Positions 2,308-39,719 of a DNA stretch of 39,719 nt are shown here, piece by piece (the first letter of the stretch is position 1; each line of letters starts with the position of its first letter). Position numbers and translations under genes: made by a program. Below the pieces are notes generated by a model, which was not told where the DNA came from, made no database searches, and was given only the letters and a program-made list of their open reading frames with translations. The DNA comes from a virus, in the IMG/VR virus record IMGVR_UViG_3300003350_000001, positions 1-39,719 of that record; one strand, written 5' to 3'.

Positions 2308-2335
2308 CCTTGGACTCCTTTAAATGAGTTATCCC

Positions 2336-13117: not shown

Positions 13118-13364
13118 CATTCATATTCAATTAAGGGCGTTACTCTTAATCCGCCTTTCGGCAGCTACCAATCACTTGGCAGATTAGACTATATCTTCAC
13201 CCCTATTGGGGGCTGTGCGCTTCCACTCACTTGAGTGTACGAGCTTTCGCTCTAGTCGTTGCACCTTCCTCTTTCGAGGCTCGGCTCAGGATTGTCTACT
13301 TGAGAGTTCCCCTGAATTCACACAGTAACTACCAGCAATTACTCACTGGCGAGGCTGACAGTTA
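13118..13364 (-). ncRNA. Group I self-splicing intron, ORF-less, 247 nt, IA-like (has P7.1/P7.2 and P9.1/P9.2 hairpins)
   Basis: On the minus strand there is an exact S element AAGAUAUAGUCU (13197-13186). R-like GUGCAACGACUAGA lies at 13264-13251, P-like AAUUCAGGGGAA at 13318-13307 and Q-like AAUCCUGAGCC at 13293-13283. There are three GAAA tetraloop hairpins and one GUGA. P1 pairs exon AGGU with intron GCCU (13355-13352). The 3' terminal base is G. The splice is in frame. Confidence 0.8.
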
Positions 13365-13505
13365 ACCTAAGTTCTTCGGGATATCATCATTGAATCTCTG
13401 AAACTTTTTATTGGAAGTACTGATGAATGCAAATGTATTTAAAAGTAACGCAAGGTTAGACCTATTATAGGTAACAACTTGCTGCAATATATTGACTGGT
13501 GCCAT
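13365..13505 (-). CDS. Major capsid protein, exon 1 (47 codons: MAPVNILQQVVTYNRSNLALLLNTFAFISTSNKKFQRFNDDIPKNLG)
   Basis: AAGGAG at 13518-13513, 7 nt before ATG 13505. The exon is too short for the ORF track. Joined to exon 2 it gives NLG|DTVSFDLPPRF. Confidence 0.75.
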
Positions 13506-14888: not shown

Positions 14889-17004
14889 GAGCTCCTCCTT
14901 GATTTAATTCATTTAAATGACTACTAATATTAATCGCGGACTCTACCGCAGTTCTACTATTTTCTGCATCCACTTCTGCAAGTTTTACTTCATTTTCTAC
15001 ATTTTGATTCTGAATCTTCGCCATAAGCTCAACAAATTTAGTTTGTGAATCACGCTCTTTAATTGCAACATTGGCAGCATCTAACTTCGCTCTTTCTTCA
15101 ATGGCCATCATCTCCAATTGTGTTTGTGTGGGCGTTTGCAATTCTTTTTGTGCTTGTTGCATTTGCATTTGTTGCATTTTAGATTGTGCTTGTGCTTGTT
15201 GCATTTGCATTTGCTGTTGGGCTTTTTGCATTTGCGCTTGTTCTTTTTCGTATTCGATTGCTTTCTCTTTTAAGGAATCAATGCCGCGTATTTCGATATT
15301 ATCCAATAGGGTTTGTAATCCTTTTTGGCTAAAGAATTGGGCAAAATTGGGCATTGATTGACTTAAACTTACAATCGTTTGCAAAGCAATTTCCTTTTGC
15401 ATCGCAAAGTTAACCCCGACTTCGACTTTGACTTGTAGGTGATTCGGGTCATAGTTCATATAAAGAGATCCTTTTTTATTGATCTCAAAATATTCACGTT
15501 TCCCATCCGGTAAAAGAATCGGAAGACTGCGTGGTGTTCGATAATAACGCGGCATCATATCCATGTAGATATGTGCAATTCGACTTAATCCTTTAATCAA
15601 TCCAACAATATAAGGCATCGATGCGTTGTTGCTTTGTATGGCACTTCTTGCAAATGCAATCCCTGACATCTGACTATTATTTTGACCGGCTGCACCGTCA
15701 TAACTTCCTAAAATGATTTGGGTCATTTCATCCGACATCCTGAACGTTTCGGCAATTTGAGGTGGTATAGGGGTTCTTACGACTTCACGCGGAGGCGGCA
15801 ATGTGACATCCGGATTTCGTGTATCCAAAAAGTGATTGTAGATGAGTGTATCTGCTTTTTGCACATTCTGATAAGCGGTTTGATAATCAGCCGGAATAGA
15901 TTCTAAAGCTACAATAAATTTATGTTGAATGGTGTTTTCAAGTTCATTGCCAAGCGATTGGCCCGCTAAATTCTTAAGACGTTGAATACCCATCGCATGA
16001 AAGACATAAGGCCGTGTCATTTGCACATAGGCCGCTCCATCTCGAAGATTGACACTATTTCCATCGATAAAGACTAACGGCAGATATTTGTAATCCGTCT
16101 CGCATACATCTAATAATGCGGACTCACAAAATCGATACCGCACAATTTTTTCAATAATCGTTTTTCTTTTTTTAACAATGACGGGGGGTTGTTCAATGAT
16201 ACCTTGCTCTTCCCACTGCTCTAGGAATTTCTCATATTCTTTTTCAAGAACGGAGTGGCCATTTGATAATTTAACAATCGTTTCTTTCTTAAATTGTTTT
16301 TCGTAATAGTCACAAACTAAAACAATTTCTTCTTGTTCATTCTGAAAAGACCAATCAAAACCGGATAATGAACGGGTAAATTGCATCTCTTCTGCGATTT
16401 TAATACCAAACGTATTTTCAAAAGATTCTTTGGTCATAGGATAAAGTTCGGCACAAAACCGACCATCTCCTTTATGTGAATCACGGGCGAGTGGATCAAA
16501 AACACACAGGGTTGGATCAAAGACGCGTTCAATACAGATGTTTTGCTCAAAGCTCTTTTCATTGATGTAATCGGTATAAATTTTAACGACCGAAAAGCCA
16601 CCCGCTAATAAATCCGAATAGGCATTATATTGAAGCATGTCATTTTCACCATCAAAGAAAACGGCACGAAGATGGGCTTCAACCACTTCTAAAGTGGCAA
16701 TAAATTGTTTATCGAGCATGGAAAGCGGCACACCATCAGCGGCCCGAACCGTTAATGCTGGCTGTTGTTTGGCAAATTCGCCGCGAAGGCGCGAGATATA
16801 CGCTTCTAAGATATTAAATTCGATGGTAGGTACGCCCCTGTCTGCAAGGGTCGCATTTTCAGTATCATCCAAAGAGGTTTTAAAGACAAACCGCGTGAAC
16901 ATTTCATAACGGGTTATATTGTCTGCAAAATAAAGGTGAGCTTCTTCGACCGATTTTTTAAGTAATTCTAATCTATCGGTATGTTTTTTCGCGATATCCG
17001 GCAT
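14875..17004 (-). CDS. Portal protein, 709 aa, with a long C-terminal Q/M-rich coiled coil
   Basis: Its size and its position immediately after terL (32-nt overlap) fit a portal. The C-terminal helical extension is reminiscent of the P22 portal barrel. Confidence 0.8.
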   Translation of the reverse strand: MPDIAKKHTDRLELLKKSVEEAHLYFADNITRYEMFTRFVFKTSLDDTENATLADRGVPTIEFNILEAYISRLRGEFAKQQPALTVRAADGVPLSMLDKQFIATLEVVEAHLRAVFFDGENDMLQYNAYSDLLAGGFSVVKIYTDYINEKSFEQNICIERVFDPTLCVFDPLARDSHKGDGRFCAELYPMTKESFENTFGIKIAEEMQFTRSLSGFDWSFQNEQEEIVLVCDYYEKQFKKETIVKLSNGHSVLEKEYEKFLEQWEEQGIIEQPPVIVKKRKTIIEKIVRYRFCESALLDVCETDYKYLPLVFIDGNSVNLRDGAAYVQMTRPYVFHAMGIQRLKNLAGQSLGNELENTIQHKFIVALESIPADYQTAYQNVQKADTLIYNHFLDTRNPDVTLPPPREVVRTPIPPQIAETFRMSDEMTQIILGSYDGAAGQNNSQMSGIAFARSAIQSNNASMPYIVGLIKGLSRIAHIYMDMMPRYYRTPRSLPILLPDGKREYFEINKKGSLYMNYDPNHLQVKVEVGVNFAMQKEIALQTIVSLSQSMPNFAQFFSQKGLQTLLDNIEIRGIDSLKEKAIEYEKEQAQMQKAQQQMQMQQAQAQSKMQQMQMQQAQKELQTPTQTQLEMMAIEERAKLDAANVAIKERDSQTKFVELMAKIQNQNVENEVKLAEVDAENSRTAVESAINISSHLNELNQGGAHEGK

Positions 17005-18550
17005 TTCTCATCATCCCTGACCTAATGCGTCGTTGTAATTGTTGATTCATATTCTTAAGAATCTCTTTATGCTCATCTTCCCTGATGGCATTAGAATATA
17101 TCGTTTTTTCAATTAAAGCGATACGAATAGCATCCGATAGCGTATCTGCAATATCATCATGACGATGGGTATTGTTAGCCGTAATTTTACTCATGTGTGC
17201 AATGCAATTATCTTTGTGCTTGGCATGATAGGAAAAGGAAATTTTCTTAGAAGCAACAAAAGGCTGCATATCCAAGAATCGTTGTGTTTTAGAGCCGGAT
17301 GCAATCGTGCGCTCTATTTGTCTTACCTGCATCCCTCGTAATTCTTGAAGAATACTCAATAGAGTAACACCGGTTGATTTCTTTTCAATGGCAGCAATCA
17401 AAGGGGGAACAGGATAACGCACACAATTGGTATAAAAGTCCATAAATGCATCTTTTAAATCCTTGGGTTCTATCCGCATTTCCATACAATCAATCCAATG
17501 CAAACCCATTTGGCCTGTTTTGCGTCCCATCGTTTCAATCTCATAAACACCCCAAAAACTAAGTACTGTCGCATCATTCCAAGATTTATCCGTTTCGGCC
17601 GTATCAGCCGTAATAAAAGTGACAAAGCAGTTGGGTTCTTCATCTAATGTGACAAACCATTCGGGTCTAAATAAGCCGCCTCCTGCTGGTAATGGATCTT
17701 GTTGGTATTGGCTTGCAAAAACATACGGAGATTTTTCTTGGAGGGTTAATAACTTTTCTTTTGGCATCATTTCGGGATAAAGCGCGTTCCCTGCACTATC
17801 TAATCCCTTTAAAATTGTCGTATGCCAATCATCCACATCTTTACCGCTCGTGAAAAAATCAGTTAGATCTGCTTCATGGACGCGTTGCCCTATATAAATG
17901 ATAGGAACATTGACGCCTCTACAGCGTTGACGGATGGTTTCATCATAATTATTAATAACGCCTTGACGTACTGCATCGCTATGGGCTTCGTCCGGTTTAT
18001 GCGCATCATCAATAATGACAGCGCCTGTAAAGCGCGAAAGTCCAGGGAGTCCTCCATCTTGACCCGTGATGGCGCCTTGGGAACCAAATGCTTTAATCGA
18101 ACCACCGGCGGTTGTTCTAAAAGAATCTTTGGCGCGGCTATCCGAATCAATCTCAATATCAAAGAGATAACAATACATTTTGCTTGAAACAATCGAACGA
18201 ATAAAAGCCGTATGTTTGGCTGCTAATTCATGCGAATAGGAAATATATAGATAATTAGAATCAGGATAGCTTGCCAAACTCCAGGCAGCCCACATACTCA
18301 CTAATGTTGATTTACCACAGCCTGGTGGCAAATTGATAATTTCTCGTAGGATTTCAAGGCGCATCACCGACGTTAAGGTTTTACAACAGCTAATGTGATG
18401 GGATTCCCTTCCCACCGGCTGTGAAATAATAAACTCACGTCCTGTAATGTACTTGAAAAAATAACGCGTAAACTCCAGTAATGAGCCTCGAAGTTTGGAG
18501 GCTTCTTCTTCCTTTTCATGATCGATGATGCCCGAAATCCATTTCGACAT
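16973..18550 (-). CDS. terL: Terminase large subunit, 525 aa
   Basis: Walker A-like PPGCGKST, Walker B-like VIIDDAHKPDE, C-terminal nuclease-type acidic motifs (ITADTAETD), directly upstream of the portal. Confidence 0.85.
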   Translation of the reverse strand: MSKWISGIIDHEKEEEASKLRGSLLEFTRYFFKYITGREFIISQPVGRESHHISCCKTLTSVMRLEILREIINLPPGCGKSTLVSMWAAWSLASYPDSNYLYISYSHELAAKHTAFIRSIVSSKMYCYLFDIEIDSDSRAKDSFRTTAGGSIKAFGSQGAITGQDGGLPGLSRFTGAVIIDDAHKPDEAHSDAVRQGVINNYDETIRQRCRGVNVPIIYIGQRVHEADLTDFFTSGKDVDDWHTTILKGLDSAGNALYPEMMPKEKLLTLQEKSPYVFASQYQQDPLPAGGGLFRPEWFVTLDEEPNCFVTFITADTAETDKSWNDATVLSFWGVYEIETMGRKTGQMGLHWIDCMEMRIEPKDLKDAFMDFYTNCVRYPVPPLIAAIEKKSTGVTLLSILQELRGMQVRQIERTIASGSKTQRFLDMQPFVASKKISFSYHAKHKDNCIAHMSKITANNTHRHDDIADTLSDAIRIALIEKTIYSNAIREDEHKEILKNMNQQLQRRIRSGMMRNAGYREKTYR

Positions 18551-18554
18551 ATTT

Positions 18555-18586
18555 TTAACTTATTGTTAACTTATTGTTAACTTAAG
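18555..18586. repeat. Tandem 11-bp repeat TTAACTTATTG, about 2.8 copies, abutting the terL start codon
   Basis: ttaacttattg ttaacttattg ttaacttaag read directly from the sequence. Confidence 0.9.
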
Positions 18587-18644
18587 GGAAATTGAGAGTG
18601 ATCTACAAATCGATTATAACCGAAATCCCTTTCGACATAATATT

Positions 18645-19853
18645 TTAACTCATAGCAAGTTTCGGAGTAGAAACAGGATCCATGGAAATAATCTGAGAAG
18701 GAATAGGTCCATTTTTTTCGATCTCACTTCCACTTAATCCATTATGAAGACGCAATATATATTCTACATCGGAATGCCCATTTTTCTTGGCATGATCTAA
18801 CGCTGTCCATCCATTACGGTCGTATAGATTTGTATGTGCGCCCGTCTTTAATAAAACAGAAACACATTTTAAATGGCCTCTTGCAGCAGCTAATATTAAG
18901 GGAGTTTTCTCAAAGAATCCTTTTACAATTGCACATAGAGAATCTGGCATGCCTCTGCCATTTACATCTACTCTCTTTGATTTAATGGTTTCTTCCAGCG
19001 CTCCTGCATGCCCCTCATGAGCCAACCATTTTATCTCTTCTTGATTCTTTTTATGTTGCCGACATGGCATCCCATAAAATAATGTATCCAATGTGCCACT
19101 AAAAGGATTCCAAAAATTGGTTCCCAAATCTCGTCGAGTTACAGGAACTGATGTGGAGTCGGAATATCTTTCTATTTCGTCCTCTTGAATTTTATCCCCA
19201 GTATTAATTACAAGCACAGGACATGAAACATCATTACGGGGACATGATAATTCTTCCTCTAGCATCCGCATTATTTCGGCCTGATCTTCTTTTCCTTTTA
19301 GCATTTTATTGTCTTCTCGTAACTGTCTATTTTCTTCTAGTAACTGTCTATTTTCTTCTAATAACTGTCTATTCTCTTCTCGCAGCTGTTTATTCTCTTC
19401 TCGCAGCTGTTTATTTTCTTCTCGTAGCTGTTTATTTTCTTCTCGTAGCTGTTTATTGTCTTCCATGACTAAATTTAATTTTTCATTTAACTCATCAATG
19501 ACACGATTTTTTTCTTTAATGGTAATGCTTTGAATTTCTACCTGTTGTTTTAAATATTTGATGTCGCGTGCCTGGTCATCAATTTTAGTAAGCGCCGTTT
19601 GCAAAAGCTGTTCTAATCGATTGACTTGATTTTCTAATCGAATTATTTTTTGGTCGGATGTTTCAACAGATTTTGAAGAGGCATCCACAATTTCTTTATT
19701 GGTAATAGGTATGGTTGTTTCTTTCGTTTGCATAAAAGATTCTCCAGTAATTGATAAAAATAACATCGTAAAATATTCCAAGAGTGCATCGACTCTTTTG
19801 CTCAATTTATCTAATGAATTATTTATTTCTTTTAATTCGAATGGCCTTTTCAT
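18645..19853 (-). CDS. Coiled-coil protein with a heptad-repeat array and C-terminal ankyrin repeats, 402 aa
   Basis: Eight tandem heptads of the E-E-N-K/R-Q-L-R/L type. The C-terminus has TPLILAAARGHLKCVSVLLKTGAHTNLYDRNGWTALDHAKKNGH, a canonical ANK consensus. Confidence 0.8.
   Translation of the reverse strand: MKRPFELKEINNSLDKLSKRVDALLEYFTMLFLSITGESFMQTKETTIPITNKEIVDASSKSVETSDQKIIRLENQVNRLEQLLQTALTKIDDQARDIKYLKQQVEIQSITIKEKNRVIDELNEKLNLVMEDNKQLREENKQLREENKQLREENKQLREENRQLLEENRQLLEENRQLREDNKMLKGKEDQAEIMRMLEEELSCPRNDVSCPVLVINTGDKIQEDEIERYSDSTSVPVTRRDLGTNFWNPFSGTLDTLFYGMPCRQHKKNQEEIKWLAHEGHAGALEETIKSKRVDVNGRGMPDSLCAIVKGFFEKTPLILAAARGHLKCVSVLLKTGAHTNLYDRNGWTALDHAKKNGHSDVEYILRLHNGLSGSEIEKNGPIPSQIISMDPVSTPKLAMS
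19313..19459. repeat. Seven tandem 21-bp units encoding the heptad array inside the ankyrin gene
   Basis: The unit cttctcgtaactgtctatttt and variants repeat with an exact 21-nt period. Confidence 0.9.
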
Positions 19854-19961
19854 GATATTTTTTCCTTATATTTGTCCGTAGTAAAAGAAGTCGTGACTTT
19901 ATCATAGATTCTTAAAAGATAATGATTTTAGAGGGTGATTATTACCTTCTTTGGTATTAAA

Positions 19962-19989
19962 TTGCATAAAATTGAATATACAATATAAT
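19962..19989 (+). promoter_or_regulatory. Candidate sigma70 promoter of the kinase-csrA operon
   Basis: TTGCAT (19962-19967), a 16-nt spacer, TATAAT (19984-19989), about 80 nt upstream of ATG 20070. Confidence 0.5.
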
Positions 19990-20011
19990 CATTGGCGAAG
20001 ATGATGTACGA

Positions 20012-20058
20012 AAGGATTTAGAAGGACCGAATAAGGACAAAGACGAACCAGAAAAGGA
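20012..20058 (+). promoter_or_regulatory. Leader carrying four AAGGA motifs (candidate CsrA-binding sites)
   Basis: AAGGA at 20012, 20022, 20033 and 20054. The last lies next to or within the SD of the first gene of an operon that ends in csrA. Confidence 0.45.
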
Positions 20059-20069
20059 AAGGGGTAGTT

Positions 20070-21026
20070 ATGCCATTAAATCAAGCCTTACGCAAACAGA
20101 GTAATGTGTTGTGGTGCATTAGCATTATTCAAGATCAACGTCCCTTAGCACAAACCAAAGAAGAATTTTCCGAAATGTCGAAAGACATTCTCAATACCGA
20201 TACTATCGAGTCTTTAACCCTATGTCCTGTTGAGCTTTTACAGCGTTTTCGCCTCATGATCCAACATGGCATTGGAGAAGAAGAGGCAATTCAAAATTGC
20301 CATCGGCTAAAAGAGCAATGGTATAGCGATAATCGCCAGGAAATAGAACGATTAGAAGGCGCCAAGAAGCTTAATCTATTAAATTGGCAAGAATTCTTAT
20401 TATGGCCTGACCTTTCAAATACGCTCTATGATTTGGAGAAGTGGTATAAGGAAGATCGTGATTTTAGAAATCTAGTAGATGGGCGTGTTAAACAAGCGCG
20501 CGAAAGCATGGCGCCAGATTGCAAAATATCCAATCCTATCGAACAAACTGCCCTTTTAAAGCGCTATCTTTTTGAAGAGTGTGCGTTCCAAAAGTTTGCA
20601 GCAGGCAAAGGCTATAATTACGAAATCTATAAAACGCCCATGAATAAAGCCATGCGCAGAGTAAAGCATAATAGTGACTTTGTGCCTCCTGGCGTATTAG
20701 TAGAAGTCTATTTCACGCAATTTATGCCAGTACCTAAAAATGATTCACCACCTCGCGTGCATGAAGGACAAAACAATGGATTTTCACAGGTATTGAGTAA
20801 AAATCCCTTAAATGTTCCTGCTTTAAATGGAATTATAAAACCAAATTCGAAGCCTGAACATCAAAAATCTGCTGCACAAAAAGTATCGGAATTCATAGAA
20901 AAAACCGTTGAACTTATTCCTGAAGAACAACAAGCAAAAGCCATCGACCTATTAATTAAATTCGCAACCAAAGAAATTATACCACTGTGTTACTCACCGC
21001 AAATGAACGATTTAAAAAATATTTAA
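20070..21026 (+). CDS. Hypothetical protein, 318 aa, first gene of the kinase-csrA operon
   Basis: ATG with AAAGGGG SD. No family is securely recognised. Confidence 0.6.
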   Translation: MPLNQALRKQSNVLWCISIIQDQRPLAQTKEEFSEMSKDILNTDTIESLTLCPVELLQRFRLMIQHGIGEEEAIQNCHRLKEQWYSDNRQEIERLEGAKKLNLLNWQEFLLWPDLSNTLYDLEKWYKEDRDFRNLVDGRVKQARESMAPDCKISNPIEQTALLKRYLFEECAFQKFAAGKGYNYEIYKTPMNKAMRRVKHNSDFVPPGVLVEVYFTQFMPVPKNDSPPRVHEGQNNGFSQVLSKNPLNVPALNGIIKPNSKPEHQKSAAQKVSEFIEKTVELIPEEQQAKAIDLLIKFATKEIIPLCYSPQMNDLKNI

Positions 21027-21046
21027 TTTTAAGCAAAGGAGTCGCT

Positions 21047-22618
21047 ATGATAGAAGAAGATTTACGGATGATCGCTAAAAATTCTGTAATTGATGAATTA
21101 TTTAACCTGTTTTCTATCAACTTTTCTTGGTGTGACAAGAACGGTCACGTTTTGGGATGTAATAAAAGTACTTTTGATTTCTTTTATTATCATGTCGGAT
21201 TAGAAGATGTCATAGGAAAACATGTGAGGGATATCGCATCGCCTGAAGCATGGGAAAACACTAAAAAAGTCATCAAAACTGGCATTCCTATGGCCGATGA
21301 AGAAATCCATACCGATGAAGACGGAACGAAAACCTATTTTGTCAGCATGAAAAGCCCTCTTAAAAACGATAAAAACGAAATTATCGGTATGGTTAATATT
21401 GCGCTAGATATTACAGACCGTAAGTTACTCGAGATGGAATGGAAAAAAGCCAAAGAAGAAGCAGAACTTAATAATAAGAATAAAACTGAATTCTTATCCA
21501 ACATGCGACATGATCTAAGAACGCCCTTTAGCGGTATTTTAGGCATGTCTCAATTATTAGAATCACAAGAAGAAGACCCTGTTAAAAAAGAAAGTTTGGG
21601 CGATATCGTTGCTTCTTCAAAATCCTTATTAAATCATTTGAATGAAATTATGGAATTTGTCGAGGTAGAAAACGGAAAGATTCCACTCGTTGAGAAAGAA
21701 TTCAATATTCACGAAGTGATAAAAGACGTCTTTTTGATGCTATTGCCAGCAGCAAAAGATAAAGAATTAGATTTTGAACTATGGGTCGATAAAGAATTAC
21801 CAGAGTACCTTTTTGGGGATTCCATCCGTATTCAACGCATTTTAATGAACCTTATCACCAATGCAGTGAAATTTACGGAGAAAGGCTTTGTAAATGTGAA
21901 AGCCTATTGGAATAAAACTACCGATGAAAAAGGTATTTTACAAATTGTCGTCGAGGACAACGGGATTGGCATTCCTTCGGATAAAAGAGAGTTCATTTTT
22001 GAGAAATTCAGTCGATTAACCTCAGCTTACCATGGAGTTTATCCAGGAAAAGGCTTAGGACTTAACATCATGAAGCAATTCTTAGAAGAATTAAACGGAC
22101 AATTTGAACTTGTAAGCGAAGTCGGAAAAGGTACTACATTCACCGTGCTCATTCCGCACAAAATTTCGTTATTCAAAATAATTAAACAAAGACATTTTAA
22201 ACCCGATAGCGATAAAGTGTTATTAATCGAGGATTATCCGATTGTTTCCAAAATGTCCAAGAAGATAATGGAAAATACCAAATTTTCTAATTTTGAAGTG
22301 GATATTGCAGAAACAGGCCTCCAAGCATTAGAAATGATGGAAGGACAACACTATGATTTAATCCTCATGGATATTGGATTGCCTGACATTGATGGTTATG
22401 AATTAACCAGGCGCATTCGTGCACACAAAGACCCTTATATTGCAATAGTTCCTATTATCGCCTTAACGGCACATACCGGCATTGAGCAGAAATGTATTGA
22501 TGTTGGCATTGATGACATTCTTACCAAACCTTTAACCGAAGAAATCATAAAATCCATTCAAGACTATTTATTATTAAGGAGATCGCATCATGCTAGTACT
22601 ATCACGAAAGTTAAATGA
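21047..22618 (+). CDS. Cytoplasmic hybrid sensor histidine kinase / response-regulator receiver (PAS-HisKA-HATPase-REC), 523 aa
   Basis: Start moved to ATG 21047 (AAGGAG 6 nt upstream). H-box MRHDLRTPFSGILG, N-box NLITNAVKFT, G1 DNGIGIP, G2 GKGLGLNI, receiver LILMDIGLPDIDG ... LTKP. There is no hydrophobic TM segment. Confidence 0.85.
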   Translation: MIEEDLRMIAKNSVIDELFNLFSINFSWCDKNGHVLGCNKSTFDFFYYHVGLEDVIGKHVRDIASPEAWENTKKVIKTGIPMADEEIHTDEDGTKTYFVSMKSPLKNDKNEIIGMVNIALDITDRKLLEMEWKKAKEEAELNNKNKTEFLSNMRHDLRTPFSGILGMSQLLESQEEDPVKKESLGDIVASSKSLLNHLNEIMEFVEVENGKIPLVEKEFNIHEVIKDVFLMLLPAAKDKELDFELWVDKELPEYLFGDSIRIQRILMNLITNAVKFTEKGFVNVKAYWNKTTDEKGILQIVVEDNGIGIPSDKREFIFEKFSRLTSAYHGVYPGKGLGLNIMKQFLEELNGQFELVSEVGKGTTFTVLIPHKISLFKIIKQRHFKPDSDKVLLIEDYPIVSKMSKKIMENTKFSNFEVDIAETGLQALEMMEGQHYDLILMDIGLPDIDGYELTRRIRAHKDPYIAIVPIIALTAHTGIEQKCIDVGIDDILTKPLTEEIIKSIQDYLLLRRSHHASTITKVK

Positions 22619-22796
22619 ACGGGTAATTATTGGGAATGACATCACGATAAGCGTGCTTGGAATTCACAGGTTTTATGTAAAATTGGGATTTGATGCACCT
22701 TCTGGTGTCAGTGTGCATCGTGAGGAAATCTATAAAAAAATCCCAAAAGTAGATGAAAGCAAGAAAACCCTTCACTTAGTGATGGATGGCCGTTAA
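22590..22796 (+). CDS. csrA: CsrA/RsmA-family RNA-binding translational regulator, 68 aa
   Basis: MLVLSRKLNERVIIGNDITISVLGI...VKLGFDAPSGVSVHREEIYKKI matches the canonical CsrA sequence pattern. AAGGAG SD. Overlaps the kinase 3' end by 29 nt. Confidence 0.9.
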   Translation: MLVLSRKLNERVIIGNDITISVLGIHRFYVKLGFDAPSGVSVHREEIYKKIPKVDESKKTLHLVMDGR

Positions 22797-23257
22797 AAAG
22801 GTTTTTTATTCTTTGCATCGAGTTCTGCTCGCAATGCCATCAACTCGATTTTAAGTTGTGCGTTTTCCTCGTTTTTTTGCTCAAGCAACGTACTATCTCC
22901 GTATTGCTTTGGCAATAACTTGGAAGCAAGCCACTTTCGAGCATCAATTTTAAGCCTAGCAACAGCGACATCTTCATAATTTGCAGAATTTGCAATTTTT
23001 ATGCATTCTTCGGCCAATATATCGGCTTGTTTCATCTTGGCTCGCGCGTATTGCCTGTAAAATTCCTCGTTTTTAAGCATCCATCTTCGCACCGTAGTTT
23101 CATCTGGGAAATCATCATTTAGAATGCAGATTTGATCCAGACTCATCGTGGTAGTTGAGATGAGCTCGCAAATTTTATCAGTTTTTTCTTCGCTATAACT
23201 AGAAGGTCTCCCGACAGGGTTAGATTCTTTCTTCTTCTTCAGTGATTTTATGGGCAT
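22793..23257 (-). CDS. terS: Terminase small subunit, 154 aa
   Basis: GRPSSYSEEKTDKICELIS..SLDQIC....P.ETTVRRWMLKNEEFYRQYARAKMKQADILAEE ... IDARKWLASKLLPKQYGD is the pattern I recall for HTH-type small terminases. AAAGGA SD. Confidence 0.7.
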   Translation of the reverse strand: MPIKSLKKKKESNPVGRPSSYSEEKTDKICELISTTTMSLDQICILNDDFPDETTVRRWMLKNEEFYRQYARAKMKQADILAEECIKIANSANYEDVAVARLKIDARKWLASKLLPKQYGDSTLLEQKNEENAQLKIELMALRAELDAKNKKPF

Positions 23258-23489
23258 TTTTAGAATCCTTTCTCTTTAGTTTTTCTGAATTTAATTTTTT
23301 CGTTTCTGTTTTCTTTATTTCATTTAATTCTTTAAGTGTCTCTTCGATAGATTTTGTAACTCCTTTTCCAAGACACATGGGACAATCAACTTCAGGTGCG
23401 CCCATATTTATATAAGTATACCCATTATTTAATTTAAAGAGCTTTTTACGACCACAACAGCGTATACATCGAACAGTTCCATTTATCAT
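23220..23489 (-). CDS. Zinc-ribbon protein, 89 aa (CxxC ... CxxC) with a Lys/Glu-rich tail
   Basis: ATG at 23489 (the ORF-track start at 23492 is TTG). Cys pairs CIRCCG and CPMCLG. Overlaps the terS start. Confidence 0.55.
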   Translation of the reverse strand: MINGTVRCIRCCGRKKLFKLNNGYTYINMGAPEVDCPMCLGKGVTKSIEETLKELNEIKKTETKKLNSEKLKRKDSKNAHKITEEEERI

Positions 23490-23609
23490 CAATCTTTCCC
23501 TATATTTGTCATACTAAAATATTATTTACATAATAAAATTATGTGTTAAGATAGCAATAGTCGGTTAATTATACCGATTTTACGTAAACATACCTAGGAG
23601 AACGGAACA

Positions 23610-25615: not shown

Positions 25616-25918
25616 TTACTTTAATGCATCCTCCGCTTTTTTAACCTGTTGTTCCATCCTATAAAATGCTTTCTGTAATTCATCGGGAAACATTTTTAAT
25701 TTCTTTGGGAATTTAGTGGCCATTCGCAATCCAATATACATCGACATCTTTTGTTCTATTTTATCCGGCGAATCAAATCCATATAAAATAGGTTGTATGT
25801 AAAAAATTAATAGATTTAAAAATGCTTTAATCTCTTTTATAGAATATTCATCTAAAAAACAATCGGTATATTTTTCAGAGAGTATTGACTTTGCTTTCTT
25901 TAATAATTTTTTATTCAT
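25616..25918 (-). CDS. Hypothetical protein, 100 aa
   Basis: ATG forms an ATGA overlap with the upstream paralogue gene. Confidence 0.55.
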   Translation of the reverse strand: MNKKLLKKAKSILSEKYTDCFLDEYSIKEIKAFLNLLIFYIQPILYGFDSPDKIEQKMSMYIGLRMATKFPKKLKMFPDELQKAFYRMEQQVKKAEDALK

Positions 25919-26151
25919 TCTTCTTGCTTCTCCTTTTCTTTTTGCATAACGTCATTAATAATTTCATCAACAAAATTAGGTACCTTACTTAAAGCCCTCA
26001 CGACGGCCATTGCTGCTACCAATGATTTGTTAGATTTTTCTGTATCTTTTGAATCAAGATTATTTGCTACCTCCTCTAAGTCATATATCATCATCTTAAA
26101 ATATTTTTTTATGTCATTAAGCGCTTCTAGTTTTAGTTTTTCATCATTCAT
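25915..26151 (-). CDS. Small acidic helical protein, paralogue 1 of 3 (78 aa)
   Basis: AAAGGA SD. About 70 percent identical by eye to the 80-aa neighbour (KLKLEALNDIKKYFKM ... VMQKEKEKQEE). Confidence 0.6.
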   Translation of the reverse strand: MNDEKLKLEALNDIKKYFKMMIYDLEEVANNLDSKDTEKSNKSLVAAMAVVRALSKVPNFVDEIINDVMQKEKEKQEE

Positions 26152-26163
26152 ATTTATTTCCTT

Positions 26164-26229
26164 TAAAAAACAATAAGTATATTTCTCAGAGAGTATTTAC
26201 TTTGCTTTCTTTAATAATTTTTTATTCAT
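26164..26229 (-). pseudogene. Duplicated 5' remnant of the 100-aa gene (MNKKLLKKAK then stop)
   Basis: Copy B of the 311-bp tandem duplication. A TCA to TAA change truncates the ORF at codon 11. Confidence 0.7.
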
Positions 26230-26468
26230 TCTTCTTGTTTCTCCTTTTCTTTTTGCATAACCTCATTAATAACTTCATCAATAAAATTAGGTACCTCAGT
26301 TAAAGCCCCCCCGATGGCCATTGCTGCTACCAATGCTTGTCTAAATTTTTCTTCATCTTTTGAATCAAGATCCTTTTCTATCTCATCTAAGTCATCTCTC
26401 AGCATCTTAAAATATTTTTTTATGTCATTAAGCGCTCGTAGTTTTAGTTTTTCATTATCCGATTTCAT
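26226..26468 (-). CDS. Small acidic helical protein, paralogue 2 of 3 (80 aa)
   Basis: See paralogue 1. Confidence 0.6.
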   Translation of the reverse strand: MKSDNEKLKLRALNDIKKYFKMLRDDLDEIEKDLDSKDEEKFRQALVAAMAIGGALTEVPNFIDEVINEVMQKEKEKQEE

Positions 26469-31103: not shown

Positions 31104-31706
31104 TTAAATTTCTTTGTTGTGAAATTCATATTTCCCAATTTCAACATTTAGATGCCGTAAATAACGATAGAGCGTAGATTGTGAAATATTGAGTTGGGAT
31201 GAGATAGTACGAATAGAAAGACTCCCATTAAGATATAATGTTTTAGCTACTTTCGCTTTTTCTTCTGCTCCTCTTGGTAATCCTCTGGGTCGTCCGCCTA
31301 ATCTGCCGCGTGCTCTTGCCGATTTTAATCCTGCATTGACACGCTCTACTATAATATCTCTTTCTAATTCTCCCATGATGGCAATCATGTGAAACATGGA
31401 TTTACCAATTGCGGTGCTTGTATCAATTTTTTGGGTAAGACTTACGAAGTCGACGTTTTTTTTTGCCAATACATCTATTATCTGCATAAAGTGACGTAAG
31501 CTTCTGGCCAATCTATCGAGCTTCCATACCATCAATGTATCTCCTTCGCGCGCATTGTTCAGTAAATCATCAAGAACCAGACGAGCCGTCTTAGCCCCAC
31601 TGGCTATTTCTTGATAGATTTTTTCACAGCCTGCTGCTTCAAGCGCATCGACCTGTAACTGAAGGGACTGGTCGCGGGTAGAGATTCGAGCGTAGCCAAT
31701 CTTCAT
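31104..31706 (-). CDS. Small serine recombinase (resolvase/invertase family), 200 aa
   Basis: MKIGYARISTRDQ (catalytic Ser motif), DRLARS, GELERDIIVERV, C-terminal HTH SQSTLYRYL. Confidence 0.9.
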   Translation of the reverse strand: MKIGYARISTRDQSLQLQVDALEAAGCEKIYQEIASGAKTARLVLDDLLNNAREGDTLMVWKLDRLARSLRHFMQIIDVLAKKNVDFVSLTQKIDTSTAIGKSMFHMIAIMGELERDIIVERVNAGLKSARARGRLGGRPRGLPRGAEEKAKVAKTLYLNGSLSIRTISSQLNISQSTLYRYLRHLNVEIGKYEFHNKEI

Positions 31707-31990
31707 TAATGTCCTATTCTTATTAAGAAGCCGAGAATTGAAACAGTTGCTACGAAAGAAGCCATCATCATACTTCCTAATCTAATAGTAAGTTTATATT
31801 CTAATGTTTTTATATCTCTTTTTAACAAAGCTATATCGCTTTTCGTCGAAACTTGATTATCAATAATATTAGCCAATTCTTCTGCCTGTCCTTCCGATAG
31901 AAAATATTTACTAGAAACCTGTCGATCTGTAAATCCTAATTCTTTCATTTTTTTAGCGTAGGCCAATGTATCAAATGCTATTTCGGTCAT
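31706..31990 (-). CDS. DUF1640-like coiled-coil membrane-anchored protein, 94 aa (start moved to an internal ATG)
   Basis: GAGGAAAAA SD before ATG 31990. FDTLAYAKKMKELGFTDRQ ... C-terminal TM. TAATG coupling to the recombinase gene. Confidence 0.65.
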   Translation of the reverse strand: MTEIAFDTLAYAKKMKELGFTDRQVSSKYFLSEGQAEELANIIDNQVSTKSDIALLKRDIKTLEYKLTIRLGSMMMASFVATVSILGFLIRIGH

Positions 31991-32203
31991 TTTTTCCTCT
32001 TTGTGTTGTCGCTTACCATTAAAATAATATTTATTAAAACTTTGATTTAAAACATCAATTAACAATAACATTATTATGGTTAAATGGGAAATTCTCGTAC
32101 AGTCGTAAAAGACCTGTTTTATGAAAGCGCCTAATTCCTCTGAATTCGAGGAAATTAGAGTTGTCGACCTCACCGATATGATTTTTTCGCATACCTGAAG
32201 TAG

Positions 32204-33448: not shown

Positions 33449-33558
33449 AAAGTTGACCGAATTCGGTTAACTCGAAACCGAACTCGGCCAGGAACTTTAA
33501 AAATCATGATATAATATGGGGGGTGACAATCTGCCCCCCCCTCAATGAGATAATAAAA

Positions 33559-33789
33559 ATGACAACAACGACATTTGATACATTGGCGTATGCCAAAAAG
33601 ATGAAAGCTGCTGGCTTTACTGACCAACAAGCGGAAGTGCAGGCAGAGGCATTTTTTGAAGTAATTGACGAAAAACTATCTACAAAGAGGGATTTAGAAG
33701 TATTAACCTATAAACTTACGATCCGACTAGGAAGCATGCTAGGCGCTGCTGTAGGAATGATTGCTATTTTGATAAAATTCGGACATTAA
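33559..33789 (+). CDS. DUF1640-like protein, second paralogue, 76 aa (start moved to an internal ATG)
   Basis: MTTTTFDTLAYAKKMKAAGFTDQQAE ... KLTIRLGSMLGAAVGMIAILIKFGH. Paralogous to 31706-31990. Confidence 0.65.
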   Translation: MTTTTFDTLAYAKKMKAAGFTDQQAEVQAEAFFEVIDEKLSTKRDLEVLTYKLTIRLGSMLGAAVGMIAILIKFGH

Positions 33790-33861: not shown

Positions 33862-34686
33862 TTAAGAATAATATTTCACTTCTAAATAGGTACCATTGAA
33901 GCTCGCATCTCCCTCAGCATTCAAAGCAGACGCATCTAACGCTTTAAAATAATGCGAAGTTTCGTAACCTACTTCAACGGCCATACACGATTTATCTTTA
34001 AACGACTGATTAAAATCAAACCCTAACTTTGCATCCATAGTAGGAACTACGCGATTGGTTGTATGATCCAGTTGAAAATCCTCATTTTGGCGATAAGTAC
34101 TCTTTATTTTTCCTACTAATAAAGCGGTATTCACATGTGCATCGAAACCAAATCCAGCTCCAAGACAATAACGCGCATCGGCACCCATTCGAGGGCCTAT
34201 TGCATTAAGGGTGGTTTCAAAGGATTGATAATCTTCGCCCTTTCCACCAACGACATTAAGTCCTAATTCATGACCTAATTCCGTATAACGAACGCCAGCA
34301 AATAAACGCATATCTAAACAGTCAAAAACAAGGCGTTGTCCCAATTCGAGATCTAATGTATCTAAGTCACATTCCTTATTGCCTTCAAAGGATATATTGT
34401 TACGTGGATCAGCATCGCTGTTAGAATTGCTCGTATTAAAATAGATATAGTGCAATGTCACATCATTGGCCGTATTTTCAAATAAGTAACCGGCTTGTAA
34501 ATGATATCCAAAATCATATTCATCGCTCACCATCGGGGTGACGGAATTTTCTCGAAGATAGTTCGCATCCACACTCACTTTAAATCCTGCGTGTTGGTTA
34601 GGAATATAAACCGTATCATTCGCAAGGACAGCAGTACTTATGCCTAATGCTGCTAATGCAACGGTTAATTGTTTCGTATATCTCAT
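33862..34686 (-). CDS. Outer-membrane porin of the Legionella MOMP family, 274 aa, with a signal peptide
   Basis: Signal peptide MRYTKQLTVALAALGISTAVLA. The blocks GYHLQAGYLFE..NDV.L.Y..F, LELGQ......MRLFAGVRY, IGPR.G.DA.Y..G.GFG......ALLVG, P..DAKLG and VGY....YF match my recollection of L. pneumophila MOMP. Confidence 0.8.
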   Translation of the reverse strand: MRYTKQLTVALAALGISTAVLANDTVYIPNQHAGFKVSVDANYLRENSVTPMVSDEYDFGYHLQAGYLFENTANDVTLHYIYFNTSNSNSDADPRNNISFEGNKECDLDTLDLELGQRLVFDCLDMRLFAGVRYTELGHELGLNVVGGKGEDYQSFETTLNAIGPRMGADARYCLGAGFGFDAHVNTALLVGKIKSTYRQNEDFQLDHTTNRVVPTMDAKLGFDFNQSFKDKSCMAVEVGYETSHYFKALDASALNAEGDASFNGTYLEVKYYS

Positions 34687-37545: not shown

Positions 37546-37558
37546 ATCTCATCCTCTA

Positions 37559-38275: not shown

Positions 38276-38284
38276 GTTATCTCC

Positions 38285-39409: not shown

Positions 39410-39437
39410 CCTTGGACTCCTTTAAATGAGTTATCCC

Positions 39438-39719
39438 TTAATTAAGTGTTTCAATTGCATATAATGTCACACTGATATCGGTCGTTGCTGTTGCCGTAAA
39501 AAAATGTAATACATCACCTGCTTTGACTTCTCGGATTAATGTACCATTAATCAATTCACTGGTAGTTGCAGCAAACGTATCGCCAGCAGGAACAGCAGCC
39601 GTTTGATTTAATGCAACCCATACTTCGGCGGTATATTTTACTTTCATTAAGGCTTTAAATCGTGGTGCACTGCCAGGAATGGTTAAAGTAGTATCGGTCG
39701 TTGCAGCAAGCGTTGAACT
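39438..39719 (-). CDS. Partial copy of the 117-aa protein (the same gene as 2336-2689), truncated by the window end
   Basis: Identical sequence at offset 37102. Confidence 0.6.
   Translation of the reverse strand, partial: SSTLAATTDTTLTIPGSAPRFKALMKVKYTAEVWVALNQTAAVPAGDTFAATTSELINGTLIREVKAGDVLHFFTATATTDISVTLYAIETLN

What the first reader, a model, noticed from the sequence alone, without database searches (positions are those of the whole stretch)
20070..22796. Phage-borne signalling operon: unknown 318-aa protein, cytoplasmic PAS hybrid histidine kinase and CsrA
Three co-oriented plus-strand genes sit in an otherwise minus-strand late region. They are separated by a 20-nt gap and then a 29-nt overlap.

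The kinase has all the kinase boxes (RHDLRTP, NLITNAVKFT, DNGIGIP, GKGLGL) and a fused receiver (LMDIGLPDIDG). It has no transmembrane segment and an N-terminal PAS-like domain, so it would sense an intracellular cue.

The last gene is an unmistakable CsrA. In gamma-proteobacteria a hybrid kinase (GacS/BarA/LetS type) sits at the top of the cascade that controls CsrA activity. In Legionella that axis governs the replicative-to-transmissive switch. A phage carrying both ends of such an axis could rewire host post-transcriptional control or set its own lysis/latency decision.

The 318-aa first gene is unassigned. By eye it shows a weak, unverified resemblance to the cyclodipeptide-synthase motif layout: an early hydrophobic strand ending C-I-S, a later Y-L-F-E-E (Y-x3-E), and Tyr residues about 15-20 aa further on. 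If real, the operon would be a signal-synthase/sensor/effector set.
Basis: partly seen in the sequence, partly recalled or inferred. Interest (0 to 1): 0.8.

Follow-up and report, generated by a model that had tools for sequence, protein, structure and literature searches.

The report
Phage cyclodipeptide synthase plus sensor kinase
An uncultured phage of Legionella-like bacteria carries an enzyme that should make a small cyclic dipeptide next to a soluble sensor kinase, a gene pair also found in Legionella chromosomes, so it may be an undescribed chemical signalling system that the phage has borrowed.

Summary
Three intact plus-strand genes sit at 20070-21026, 21047-22618 and 22590-22796, with a 20-nt gap and a 29-nt overlap, between the small and large terminase genes of a circular 37.1-kb P22-like phage.

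The kinase is PAS-HisKA-HATPase-receiver with no membrane segment and no Hpt domain. The last gene is a bona fide CsrA.

It is a divergent cyclodipeptide synthase (CDPS) by profile, by fold and by its invariant Ser18, Tyr166, Glu170 and Tyr187.

New here:
- CDPS followed by the kinase is conserved in every related phage contig found (about 20 distinct).
- The kinase's closest cellular relatives are Legionella-type hybrid kinases. Five of the six loci examined have a CDPS gene immediately adjacent.
- csrA lies next to the kinase only in this sub-lineage.
- The kinase is not a LetS/GacS orthologue.

Best reading: a streamlined copy of a Legionella CDPS-kinase signalling pair that must work through host phosphorelay partners. 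The ligand-sensor link is inferred, not shown.

No CDPS was found in 50,697 deposited phage genomes.

The parts
19854..20069 (+). Divergent intergenic region between the ankyrin gene (-) and the CDPS gene (+). It holds the presumed cassette promoter and the 5' leader.
   Evidence: A box of the type AAAATGTAACATAA, about 130 nt upstream of the ATG, is conserved among relatives. No terminator or promoter signal above chance was found.
20014..20058 (+). Four A-GGA motifs in the CDPS leader (GGA at 20014, 20024, 20035 and 20056). Candidate CsrA-binding sites.
   Evidence: Sequence read. Of 18 related CDPS leaders, 17 have at least 3 GGA in 80 nt, against 13.5% of 215 other ORF leaders. In relatives the two upstream motifs are 19-22 nt apart. 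This stretch is not predicted to be structured (z +0.9).
20070..21026 (+). Cyclodipeptide synthase (CDPS), 318 aa. Catalytic core is roughly residues 1-222, then a disordered linker 224-263, then a conserved two-helix C-terminal extension 268-307.
   Evidence: Profile against PDB sequences: only CDPSs at the top (4e-12). AF2 pLDDT 84.7. The top 44 Foldseek PDB hits are all CDPS; 5ocd has E 8e-13 and TM 0.78. S18, Y166, E170, Y187 and K188 are invariant in 54 sequences. dN/dS 0.067.
21047..22618 (+). Soluble hybrid histidine kinase, 523 aa. PAS 21131-21424, HisKA 21482-21676, HATPase 21815-22162, receiver 22217-22549. No transmembrane segment and no Hpt domain.
   Evidence: Pfam. AF2 of the PAS region, pLDDT 89.8, canonical PAS fold. 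H155, N268, N272, D304xGxG, G334xGxG and receiver D442, T474, K494 are invariant in the phage clade. It aligns only to the second PAS through the receiver of the cellular homologues.
22590..22796 (+). CsrA-family RNA-binding protein, 68 aa. It overlaps the kinase gene by 29 nt and the convergent small terminase gene by 4 nt.
   Evidence: Pfam PF02599 76.3 bits (cut-off 27). TIGR00202 76.8 bits (cut-off 70.1). It aligns to RsmE/CsrA structures over residues 1-56, including VHREEIY.
18645..19853 (-). Ankyrin-repeat plus coiled-coil protein. It is the conserved divergent neighbour of the CDPS gene and lies at the head of the terminase/portal gene string.
   Evidence: Pfam Ank_2 4e-11. It is found between the large terminase and the CDPS in nearly all related loci (not detected in L007/L020), at 27-40% identity.
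22793..23257 (-). Small terminase (Sf6 type), flanking the cassette.
   Evidence: PF20901 3.3e-33.
16973..18550 (-). Large terminase, flanking the cassette plus the ankyrin gene.
   Evidence: Terminase_6N 3e-6. It is 74-86% identical in relatives, next to a P22-type portal.

Best explanation
The cassette is a streamlined, phage-borne copy of a Legionella-type gene pair: a cyclodipeptide synthase and a PAS hybrid histidine kinase. In this sub-lineage the phage's csrA has moved next to it.

**Proposed mechanism.**
1. The CDPS takes two aminoacyl-tRNAs from the host and releases a small, membrane-permeant cyclodipeptide (diketopiperazine).
2. The soluble PAS kinase senses that compound, or a close derivative, inside the cell.
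3. The kinase changes its autophosphorylation at His155 and its transfer to Asp442 of its own receiver.
4. The phage protein has no Hpt domain and no output domain, so it cannot finish a phosphorelay alone. It has to exchange phosphate with the Hpt domain or response regulator of the host's homologous kinase pathway. It therefore drives or drains a host signalling circuit.
5. CsrA acts post-transcriptionally on GGA-containing RNAs, probably including the GGA-rich leader of the cassette itself.

**Shown:** the identity and intactness of the three proteins, and the conserved linkage of CDPS and kinase in the phages and in Legionella genomes.

**Inferred:** that the cyclodipeptide is the kinase's ligand, the route of phosphotransfer, and the CsrA-leader interaction.
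For: **The 318-aa protein is a CDPS.**
- A profile of 54 homologues hits solved CDPSs first: Rickettsiella grylli 5mlp 3.7e-12, Fluoribacter dumoffii 5ocd 3.8e-12, Nocardia brasiliensis 5mlq 9e-12.
- The AF2 model has pLDDT 84.7. The 44 best Foldseek PDB matches are all CDPSs.
- 34 of the 54 family members hit Pfam CDPS.
- The residues that PMC7566563 lists as almost strictly conserved in active CDPSs (S37, Y178, E182, Y202) correspond to S18, Y166, E170 and Y187. These are invariant in all 54 sequences.

**Linkage in phages.**
- In every related contig that extends past the CDPS gene, the order is large terminase, then (in nearly all of them) the ankyrin gene, then the divergent CDPS followed by the kinase.
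- This order survives rearrangement of the rest of the genome.

**Linkage in cells.**
- The kinase's closest cellular homologues are Legionella and Fluoribacter PAS-PAS-kinase-receiver-Hpt proteins (38-40% identity) and similar proteins on large metagenomic contigs (43-47%).
- A CDPS gene is immediately adjacent in 5 of the 6 loci examined: L. micdadei 7e-17, L. jordanis 3e-16, L. pneumophila 3e-15, and two large metagenomic contigs 6e-11 and 2e-9.

**One ancient capture.** Phage kinases form a single clade beside the cellular ones.

**Function is retained.**
- dN/dS is 0.05-0.07.
- All kinase and receiver catalytic residues are invariant.

**Diversification pattern.**
- Portal and large terminase are about 81% identical across the clade. 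The CDPS core is 59% and the PAS domain 50%.
- Positions mapped to the first substrate pocket are conserved.
- Positions 191 and 192, mapped to the second pocket, are hypervariable (2.6 and 2.2 bits) inside an otherwise conserved YKTPxxKAM block.
- Position 192 aligns with Nbra-CDPS S199. Mutating S199 changes the second substrate (PMC13062777).
- CDPS divergence tracks PAS divergence (rho 0.43) better than it tracks the kinase core (0.11-0.23) or the large terminase (0.09).

**Precedents.**
- A PAS domain binds the pyrazinol autoinducer DPO in VqmA and in the VqmA of phage VP882 (PMC8284805).
- PAS domains were already noted as frequent neighbours of CDPS genes (PMC5767969).

**Leader.** 17 of 18 CDPS leaders carry at least 3 GGA motifs, against 13.5% of other leaders.
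Against: - No experiment links any cyclodipeptide to any PAS kinase. Adjacency would equally fit a kinase that regulates production of the compound.
- The window protein is below the curated thresholds: TIGR04539 gives 22 bits against 45, and Pfam gives no hit.
- Position 203 is an invariant Lys. It is neither the Pro nor the His of the two described CDPS subfamilies, so catalytic activity is not guaranteed.
- The phage CDPS is only about 20% identical to the cellular kinase-linked CDPSs, while the kinases are 38-47% identical. The two genes may therefore not have been captured together.
- One kinase sub-clade has no receiver domain within the fetched DNA, and another has it as a separate gene.
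- L. longbeachae has the kinase without a detectable CDPS neighbour.
- The CDPS-PAS correlation comes from 17 related, linked pairs and is confounded by shared ancestry.
- The window's own leader shows no predicted structure. The cellular CDPS leaders are not GGA-rich.
- The host is inferred, not demonstrated.
Confidence: 0.5

Rival explanations
1. Regulated-metabolite model. The kinase senses some other intracellular cue, such as redox state, oxygen or a metabolite, and only controls when the CDPS is made or active. The cyclodipeptide is an effector rather than a signal. It could be an antimicrobial, a compound acting on the amoebal host, or a metal-binding precursor.
For: - Gene adjacency alone cannot separate a sensor of the product from a regulator of the producer.
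- The best structural matches of the PAS domain are flavin-binding LOV and NifL-type sensors.
- Many CDPS products are bioactive end products (PMC5816076).
- The neighbouring ankyrin gene and the Legionella outer-membrane-protein gene suggest host-conversion functions.
Against: - No tailoring enzymes or exporters accompany the CDPS in any phage locus.
- The kinase has no DNA-binding output with which to regulate its neighbour.
- Hypervariability at second-pocket positions, together with a fast-evolving PAS domain, fits signal-receptor diversification better than a single optimised effector.
Confidence: 0.2
2. Decoy or jamming model. The phage proteins do not form a communication system of their own. 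The Hpt-less kinase-receiver is a dominant-negative phosphate sink for the host's homologous phosphorelay. The divergent CDPS makes an agonist or antagonist that overrides the host signal. Together they lock the host in a state favourable to phage growth.
For: - The phage kinase is exactly the host protein minus its membrane/first-PAS input and its Hpt output.
- Some relatives have lost or split off the receiver.
- The phage CDPS is far more diverged from the host CDPSs than the kinase is from the host kinases.
Against: - All autophosphorylation and ATP-binding residues are invariant across a deeply diverged clade. A pure sink would not need them.
- This model overlaps with the best explanation and differs mainly in the sign of the effect.
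Confidence: 0.15
3. Unlinked cargo. CDPS, kinase and CsrA are independent accessory genes that sit together only because this is a permissive insertion site between the terminase genes.
For: - The site also holds a highly variable ankyrin gene, and sometimes an extra 351-aa gene between the CDPS and the kinase.
- The position of csrA varies.
Against: - CDPS followed by the kinase is kept in every relative, at 41-61% and 45-54% identity to the window proteins, despite genome rearrangements.
- The same two families are neighbours in 5 of 6 cellular loci, in two different orientations.
Confidence: 0.07
4. The kinase is a GacS/BarA/LetS-type master kinase and acts with the phage CsrA as the two ends of the host Csr cascade.
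For: - The kinase core resembles BarA and LetS at family level (260 and 211 bits).
- A CsrA gene follows it in this window.
Against: - The scores are far below the equivalog cut-offs of 890 and 1650.
- There is no transmembrane/HAMP input and no Hpt domain.
- The nearest cellular relatives are a different, CDPS-linked Legionella kinase family.
- csrA is not adjacent in most relatives.
Confidence: 0.05

Closest known systems
XYP-subfamily cyclodipeptide synthases of Legionellales (Fluoribacter dumoffii 5ocd, Rickettsiella grylli 5mlp) and Nocardia brasiliensis 5mlq
   Same: - Same fold: TM 0.78 to 5ocd.
- Same catalytic Ser, Tyr, Glu and Tyr.
- Gln at position 40, as in the kinase-linked Legionella CDPSs.
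- The LQR(F/H/Y) and Y-L-x-E-E-C-A motifs are shared.
   Different: - Only about 20% identity.
- An invariant Lys replaces the signature Pro203.
- About 95 extra C-terminal residues: a disordered linker plus two conserved helices.
- Encoded by a phage.
- The window protein falls below the curated HMM thresholds.
Legionella chromosomal pair of a CDPS and a PAS-PAS-kinase-receiver-Hpt hybrid kinase (seen here in L. micdadei, L. jordanis and L. pneumophila)
   Same: - The same two protein families are immediate neighbours.
- The kinase is 37-40% identical from the second PAS domain through the receiver.
   Different: - The phage kinase lacks the N-terminal PAS or membrane region and the Hpt domain.
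- The phage CDPS is much more diverged.
- The pair itself seems uncharacterised. The only relevant note found is that PAS domains are common near CDPS genes (PMC5767969).
agr genes of Clostridioides difficile phage phiCDHM1 (PMC3901668)
   Same: A phage carries signal-production genes together with a histidine kinase, without a dedicated response regulator, and so implies use of host partners.
   Different: - Unrelated proteins (AgrB, AgrD, AgrC).
- The signal is a ribosomal peptide thiolactone.
- The kinase is membrane-bound.
- The host is Gram-positive.
VqmA of vibriophage VP882 sensing DPO (PMC8284805)
   Same: - A phage-encoded cytoplasmic PAS-domain receptor for a small diaza-heterocycle made from amino acids.
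- VqmA PAS structures are among the top Foldseek matches, at 22-24% identity.
   Different: - VqmA is a one-component transcription factor.
- That phage does not make the signal.
- The structural similarity is generic to PAS domains and says nothing about the ligand.
Arbitrium (AimP-AimR) of SPbeta-like phages (from my own knowledge)
   Same: The phage would encode both signal and receptor, and these diversify faster than the structural genes.
   Different: - The arbitrium signal is a secreted ribosomal hexapeptide.
- The receptor is a TPR transcription factor.
- Arbitrium makes a lysis-lysogeny decision in phages that are demonstrably temperate. Here no integrase or repressor was found.
CsrA paralogues on Legionella mobile elements and phage CsrA-like regulators (phrog_9500)
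   Same: A small CsrA-family protein with conserved RNA-binding residues, carried by a mobile element.
   Different: - Its targets are unknown.
- In this lineage it is translationally overlapped with a kinase gene.
- It lies downstream of a GGA-rich leader.

Membership tests
Cyclodipeptide synthase (PF16715 / TIGR04539) | Rossmann-type fold related to class Ic aminoacyl-tRNA synthetases | tested here: met
   AF2 pLDDT 84.7. The top 44 Foldseek PDB hits are all CDPS, followed by TyrRS. The best is 5ocd, E 8e-13, TM 0.78.
Cyclodipeptide synthase (PF16715 / TIGR04539) | Catalytic Ser37, Tyr178, Glu182 and Tyr202 (AlbC numbering; PMC7566563) | tested here: met
   S18, Y166, E170 and Y187 are invariant in 54 of 54 family members. 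They align to the equivalent residues of 5mlp, 5ocd and 5mlq and of the Legionella CDPSs.
Cyclodipeptide synthase (PF16715 / TIGR04539) | Subfamily signature NYH or XYP at positions 40, 202 and 203 | tested here: not met
   The signature is Q21-Y187-K188, and the Lys is invariant. Intermediate long CDPS-like proteins have P, K, R, M, A or L at this position. By profile the protein is closest to the XYP subfamily.
Cyclodipeptide synthase (PF16715 / TIGR04539) | Score above the curated HMM cut-off | tested here: not met
   For the window protein, TIGR04539 gives 22 bits against a cut-off of 45 and Pfam gives no hit. 34 of the 54 relatives hit PF16715 at E of 0.1 or below, the best at 8.6e-7.
Cyclodipeptide synthase (PF16715 / TIGR04539) | Makes a cyclodipeptide from two aminoacyl-tRNAs | not testable with these tools
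   Needs heterologous expression and LC-MS.
Hybrid histidine kinase (HisKA-type kinase fused to a receiver) | H-box His; N, G1 and G2 boxes; receiver Asp, Thr and Lys | tested here: met
   Pfam domains. H155, N268, N272, D304xGxG, G334xGxG, D442, T474 and K494 are invariant in the clade.
Tripartite BarA/GacS/LetS/ArcB-type kinases | Membrane input (transmembrane/HAMP), a C-terminal Hpt domain, and an equivalog-level score | tested here: not met
   No transmembrane segment (maximum Kyte-Doolittle mean 1.1). No Hpt in the protein or elsewhere in the window. LetS 211 bits against 1650, BarA 260 against 890, ArcB 274 against 838.
CsrA/RsmA (PF02599 / TIGR00202) | Score above the curated cut-offs and conserved RNA-binding residues | tested here: met
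   PF02599 76.3 bits (cut-off 27), TIGR00202 76.8 (70.1), NF002469 76.7 (73). It aligns end to end with RsmE and CsrA structures, including VHREEIY.
CsrA/RsmA (PF02599 / TIGR00202) | Binds GGA motifs in target RNAs | not testable with these tools
   Only indirect: the GGA-rich CDPS leader.
Phage-encoded quorum-sensing or communication system (signal synthase plus receptor) | The phage-made molecule is sensed by the phage-made receptor and changes phage or host behaviour | not testable with these tools
   Supported only by conserved linkage in phages and cells and by the diversification pattern.
Tailed phage with P22-like head genes | Terminase subunits, P22-type portal, capsid and tail-fibre genes on one replicon of phage size | tested here: met
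   Circular 37.1-kb unit. The portal is only 24% identical to the nearest deposited phage, Xylella Xfas53.

The most novel reading that the evidence does not exclude
Legionella-like bacteria and a whole clade of their phages use tRNA-derived cyclodipeptides as diffusible signals read by PAS histidine kinases. The phages make their own dialects: the first residue is fixed and the second is variable, matched by fast-evolving PAS domains. This lets infected cells count each other, or lets the phage override the host circuit. It would be both an unrecognised quorum-sensing chemistry in Legionella and the first phage communication system based on a non-ribosomal small molecule that the phage synthesises itself.
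Probability: 0.3. Interest if true: 0.9.

Novelty: new variant of a known kind. Interest (0 to 1): 0.8.

Why it matters
**A new gene class for phages.**
- tBLASTn with both the phage CDPS and a Legionella CDPS found no match in 50,697 deposited phage records.
- Literature searches for phage-borne CDPSs and for a Legionella CDPS-kinase link found nothing, apart from a passing remark that PAS domains are common near CDPS genes.

**If the CDPS product is the kinase's ligand, three things follow.**
- Cyclodipeptides have long been suspected to be signals. They would gain a genetically defined synthase-receptor pair.
- Legionella would have a second cell-cell signalling system besides Lqs.
- Phages would be shown to copy a two-component signalling module and to diversify it.

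**It also bears on Legionella phages.** The contigs define an uncultured clade of phages that very probably infect Legionellales. Phages are hardly known for this group. These ones carry ankyrin, outer-membrane-protein and CsrA genes of the type associated with the intracellular lifestyle.

**Everything is directly testable.** The CDPS assay in E. coli is routine, and the kinase is soluble.

Tried and rejected
- **DNA similarity to deposited phages.** No match for 16900-23500.
- **Host assignment from prophages.** The scan of 185,579 species genomes returned a single hit, a 28.5-kb contig in a Mucilaginibacter bin. By gene content this looks like a misbinned phage contig.
- **Host assignment from the outer-membrane-protein gene.** Only three unnamed metagenomic homologues were found. 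The host call therefore rests on four things: the kinase's nearest relatives, the Pfam family of the outer-membrane-protein gene, the ankyrin gene, and the affinities of the CDPS.
- **Metagenome scan.** It added only nine loci, several of them duplicates.
- **Consensus RNA structure for the CDPS leaders.** RNAalifold found no pairs on the MAFFT alignment. Single-sequence folds show a hairpin that sequesters the Shine-Dalgarno sequence in some relatives (z -2.4 to -3.2) but not in the window.
- **GGA-rich leaders upstream of the cellular CDPS or kinase genes.** Not seen.
- **Testing whether the second-pocket residues co-vary with the PAS domain.** Pairs with the same residues are more similar in every domain, so the test is confounded by relatedness.
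- **Foldseek on the PAS model.** It gives generic PAS, LOV and VqmA matches and cannot identify a ligand.
- **Search for an Hpt domain elsewhere in the window.** tBLASTn was negative, but its sensitivity is limited.
- **Product prediction for the CDPS.** Not attempted beyond pocket mapping, because the published pocket rules are unreliable for this subfamily (PMC5816076).
- **Promoter and terminator scans.** At chance level.

Full report
**What is there.**
The three plus-strand ORFs exist as described. The kinase ORF opens at a GTG at 20987, but the plausible start is the ATG at 21047, behind AAAGGAG. That gives the 20-nt gap after the first gene. csrA starts at 22590 with its own AAGGAG and overlaps the kinase gene by 29 nt. 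Its stop overlaps the stop of the convergent small terminase gene by 4 nt.

Everything else of 90 aa or more between 457 and 27418 is on the minus strand. The window is a phage genome. It has an Sf6-type small terminase, a large terminase, a P22-type portal, capsid and tail-fibre genes, a Cro-like regulator, YqaJ/RecT/SSB recombination genes and an O-like replication protein. Bases 1-2617 recur at 37103-39719, so the unit is a 37,102-bp circle or a circularly permuted genome. The cassette, together with a minus-strand ankyrin gene, lies between the two terminase genes.

**The kinase and CsrA.**
Pfam finds PAS, HisKA, HATPase_c and a receiver. No 19-residue window is hydrophobic enough for a membrane helix. 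An AF2 model of residues 1-151 is a confident canonical PAS domain with flanking helices. Its structural neighbours are generic (LOV, NifL, VqmA) and do not identify a ligand. There is no Hpt domain in the protein or, by tBLASTn, anywhere in the window.

CsrA passes the Pfam cut-off and two NCBIfam equivalog cut-offs. It aligns with solved CsrA/RsmE structures through the VHREEIY segment.

**The 318-aa protein is a cyclodipeptide synthase.**
On its own it gives only a sub-threshold NCBIfam hit (22 bits, cut-off 45) and no Pfam hit. Fifty-three homologues (43-95% identity) were retrieved, many from contigs of 36-41 kb.
- A profile of the family hits solved CDPSs and nothing else at the top. The hits are from Rickettsiella grylli, Fluoribacter dumoffii and Nocardia brasiliensis, all at about 1e-11 to 1e-12.
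- 34 of the 54 members touch Pfam CDPS.
- The AF2 model (pLDDT 84.7) has CDPSs as its 44 best PDB matches, followed by tyrosyl-tRNA synthetases, the known structural relatives.
- The four residues reported as almost strictly conserved in active CDPSs (PMC7566563) correspond to S18, Y166, E170 and Y187. All four are invariant in the 54 sequences.

It differs from described CDPSs in two ways.
- Position 203 is an invariant Lys. The two named subfamilies have Pro or His there.
- A disordered linker and two conserved helices (268-307) extend the C-terminus.

An exhaustive profile search gives 537 relatives. These include a set of long 270-360-aa CDPS-like proteins in which position 203 is P, K, R, M, A or L. 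Legionellaceae CDPSs with extra C-terminal domains have been noted before (PMC5816076).

**The conserved unit is CDPS plus kinase.**
In about 20 distinct related contigs the order is large terminase, then (in nearly all of them) the ankyrin gene, then the divergent CDPS followed by the kinase. This holds even where the rest of the genome is rearranged.

The receiver takes three forms:
- fused to the kinase, as here;
- a separate gene downstream;
- not found within the fetched DNA.

Every genome with enough sequence has a csrA. It abuts the kinase only in the window, its near twin L025 and L008. Elsewhere it lies beyond the small terminase gene or in the early region.

Against L025 the three genes show dN/dS of 0.067, 0.046 and 0.22. 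All kinase and receiver catalytic residues are invariant across the clade.

**The same pair exists in Legionella.**
The kinase's nearest cellular relatives are about 800-aa Legionella and Fluoribacter proteins with two PAS domains, kinase, receiver and Hpt (38-40% identity). Closer still are about 880-aa proteins on large metagenomic contigs (43-47%). The phage protein aligns only from the second PAS domain through the receiver.

In 5 of the 6 such loci fetched, the gene immediately next to the kinase is a CDPS by hhalign and HMM search:
- upstream and co-directional in L. micdadei and in two metagenomic contigs;
- convergent downstream in L. jordanis and L. pneumophila;
- none detectable in L. 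longbeachae.

A seventh locus, for which no DNA was available, has an unannotated 261-aa gene in the same upstream position. Phage kinases form one clade beside these cellular kinases, which argues for one old capture.

The literature library yielded no description of this pairing in Legionella. A genome-wide survey had remarked that PAS domains are among the commonest non-biosynthetic neighbours of CDPS genes, and speculated about quorum sensing (PMC5767969).

**Signs of diversification.**
- Across 17 phage loci, portal and large terminase average 81-82% pairwise identity. The CDPS core averages 59% and the PAS domain 50%. The kinase core and receiver average 57-61%.
- The near twin L025 shows the opposite pattern: the cassette is 96-98% identical while the structural genes are about 90% and the small terminase 68%. 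The cassette therefore moves as a block by recombination.
- Residues anchored to the catalytic positions and mapped to the first substrate pocket are conserved.
- Positions 191 and 192, mapped to the second pocket, are among the most variable in the core. They sit inside a conserved YKTPxxKAM block.
- Position 192 aligns with S199 of the Nocardia enzyme, where a Leu substitution shifts the second substrate (PMC13062777).
- CDPS divergence correlates with PAS divergence (rho 0.43) more than with the kinase core or the structural genes. The pairs are few, linked and related, so this is suggestive only.

**Leader.**
In relatives, the 80 nt before the CDPS start codon carry two conserved (A/T)GGATT motifs 19-22 nt apart, plus the GGA of the Shine-Dalgarno sequence. 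In the window there are four A-GGA motifs. 17 of 18 leaders have at least three GGA, against 13.5% of 215 other leaders in the same contigs.

In several relatives a conserved CTTTCTTTAA pairs with TTAAAGGAG and sequesters the ribosome-binding site (z -2.4 to -3.2). The window's leader is unstructured. This is the layout expected of a CsrA-controlled leader, which is my inference from what is known of CsrA. It would give csrA a functional tie to the cassette, but it is untested.

**Host.**
No integrated copy was found in 185,579 species genomes, apart from one probably misbinned contig. No integrase or CI-type repressor was seen.

A Legionellales host is inferred from:
- the kinase's relatives;
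- a gene of the Legionella major outer-membrane-protein family (8e-44);
- the ankyrin gene;
- the affinities of the CDPS;
- about 38% G+C.

The portal is only 24% identical to the closest deposited phage.

**Interpretation.**
The identities of the parts are secure. The functional link between the CDPS and the kinase rests on conserved neighbourhood in two very different genomic settings, so it is strong as an association but silent about direction.

I favour signal and sensor for four reasons:
- the kinase is soluble and cyclodipeptides cross membranes;
- no tailoring or export genes accompany the CDPS;
- the variable parts are the second-substrate pocket and the PAS domain;
- a PAS domain that reads an amino-acid-derived diaza-heterocycle is established for VqmA and its phage homologue (PMC8284805).

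Because the phage kinase lacks an Hpt domain and any output, it must act through host partners, most simply the Hpt and regulator of the homologous host kinase. Whether the outcome is phage-phage counting, eavesdropping or jamming cannot be decided here.

**Novelty.**
No CDPS was detected in 50,697 deposited phage genomes with either a phage or a Legionella query. No paper on phage CDPSs was found. Histidine kinases do occur sporadically in phage records. The closest functional analogue is the agr cassette of phage phiCDHM1 (PMC3901668).

Noticed in passing
window 13118-13364 (Rfam match 13165-13374, minus strand): A group I intron (RF00028, 72.5 bits, E 1e-16) splits the major-capsid-like gene into exon 1 (13499-13365) and exon 2 (13117-12014). 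The same intron, at 90% identity, is in relatives L012 and L023. It is absent from the near twin L025 and from most other relatives.
   Followed up: partly
window 31104-31706 (-), with inverted repeats 31920-31994 and 33555-33629: A Hin/Gin-type DNA invertase (Resolvase 9e-43, phrog_125) lies next to 75-nt inverted repeats that bracket about 1.6 kb. This is probably an invertible segment, perhaps switching host-range genes.
   Followed up: no
window 33862-34686 (-): Gene of the Legionella major outer-membrane-protein family (PF05150, 8e-44) carried by the phage. It is the best single clue to a Legionellales host. Only three unnamed metagenomic homologues were found.
   Followed up: partly
window 18645-19853 (-): Ankyrin-repeat protein with a long coiled coil that contains tandem REENKQL-type repeats. 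It is kept between the large terminase and the CDPS in nearly all relatives (not detected in L007/L020), but is only 27-40% identical among them. It resembles Legionella Dot/Icm ankyrin effectors only weakly.
   Followed up: no
window 20014-20058 and the equivalent leaders of L001-L026: GGA-rich CDPS leader with conserved (A/T)GGATT motifs 19-22 nt apart. In many relatives an anti-Shine-Dalgarno CTTTCTTTAA pairs with TTAAAGGAG. This is a candidate CsrA-regulated or otherwise riboregulated leader.
   Followed up: partly
window 1-2617 = 37103-39719; also 1-300 vs 731-1030 and 1781-1907 vs 36046-36172: Terminal redundancy shows a circular or permuted 37.1-kb genome. The region of higher G+C (46-49%) holds tail-fibre-like genes with internal repeats about 71% identical, which suggests duplicated or exchanged receptor-binding modules.
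   Followed up: no
window 25847-26146 and 26158-26457: Tandem direct repeat of about 300 nt, 89% identical, in the AT-rich early region. Its function is unknown.
   Followed up: no
L028 2986-3222 and 3898-4383; L033 6981 onward: On the 291-kb cellular contig, a csrA paralogue and a SieB-like gene lie 4-5 kb from the CDPS-kinase pair. In L. micdadei a non-ribosomal peptide synthetase gene follows the kinase.
   Followed up: no
proteins P0184-P0207, P0186: A family of long (270-360 aa) CDPS-like proteins bridges the phage clade and the canonical CDPSs. They have hydrophilic C-terminal tails and P, K, R, M, A or L at position 203. P0186 (527 aa) appears to contain two CDPS domains. Their genomic contexts could not be looked up.
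   Followed up: no
loci and L004 (11242-12297 in locus coordinates): Some relatives have an extra 351-aa gene with no Pfam match inserted between the CDPS and the kinase. They carry the receiver as a separate 138-aa gene.
   Followed up: no
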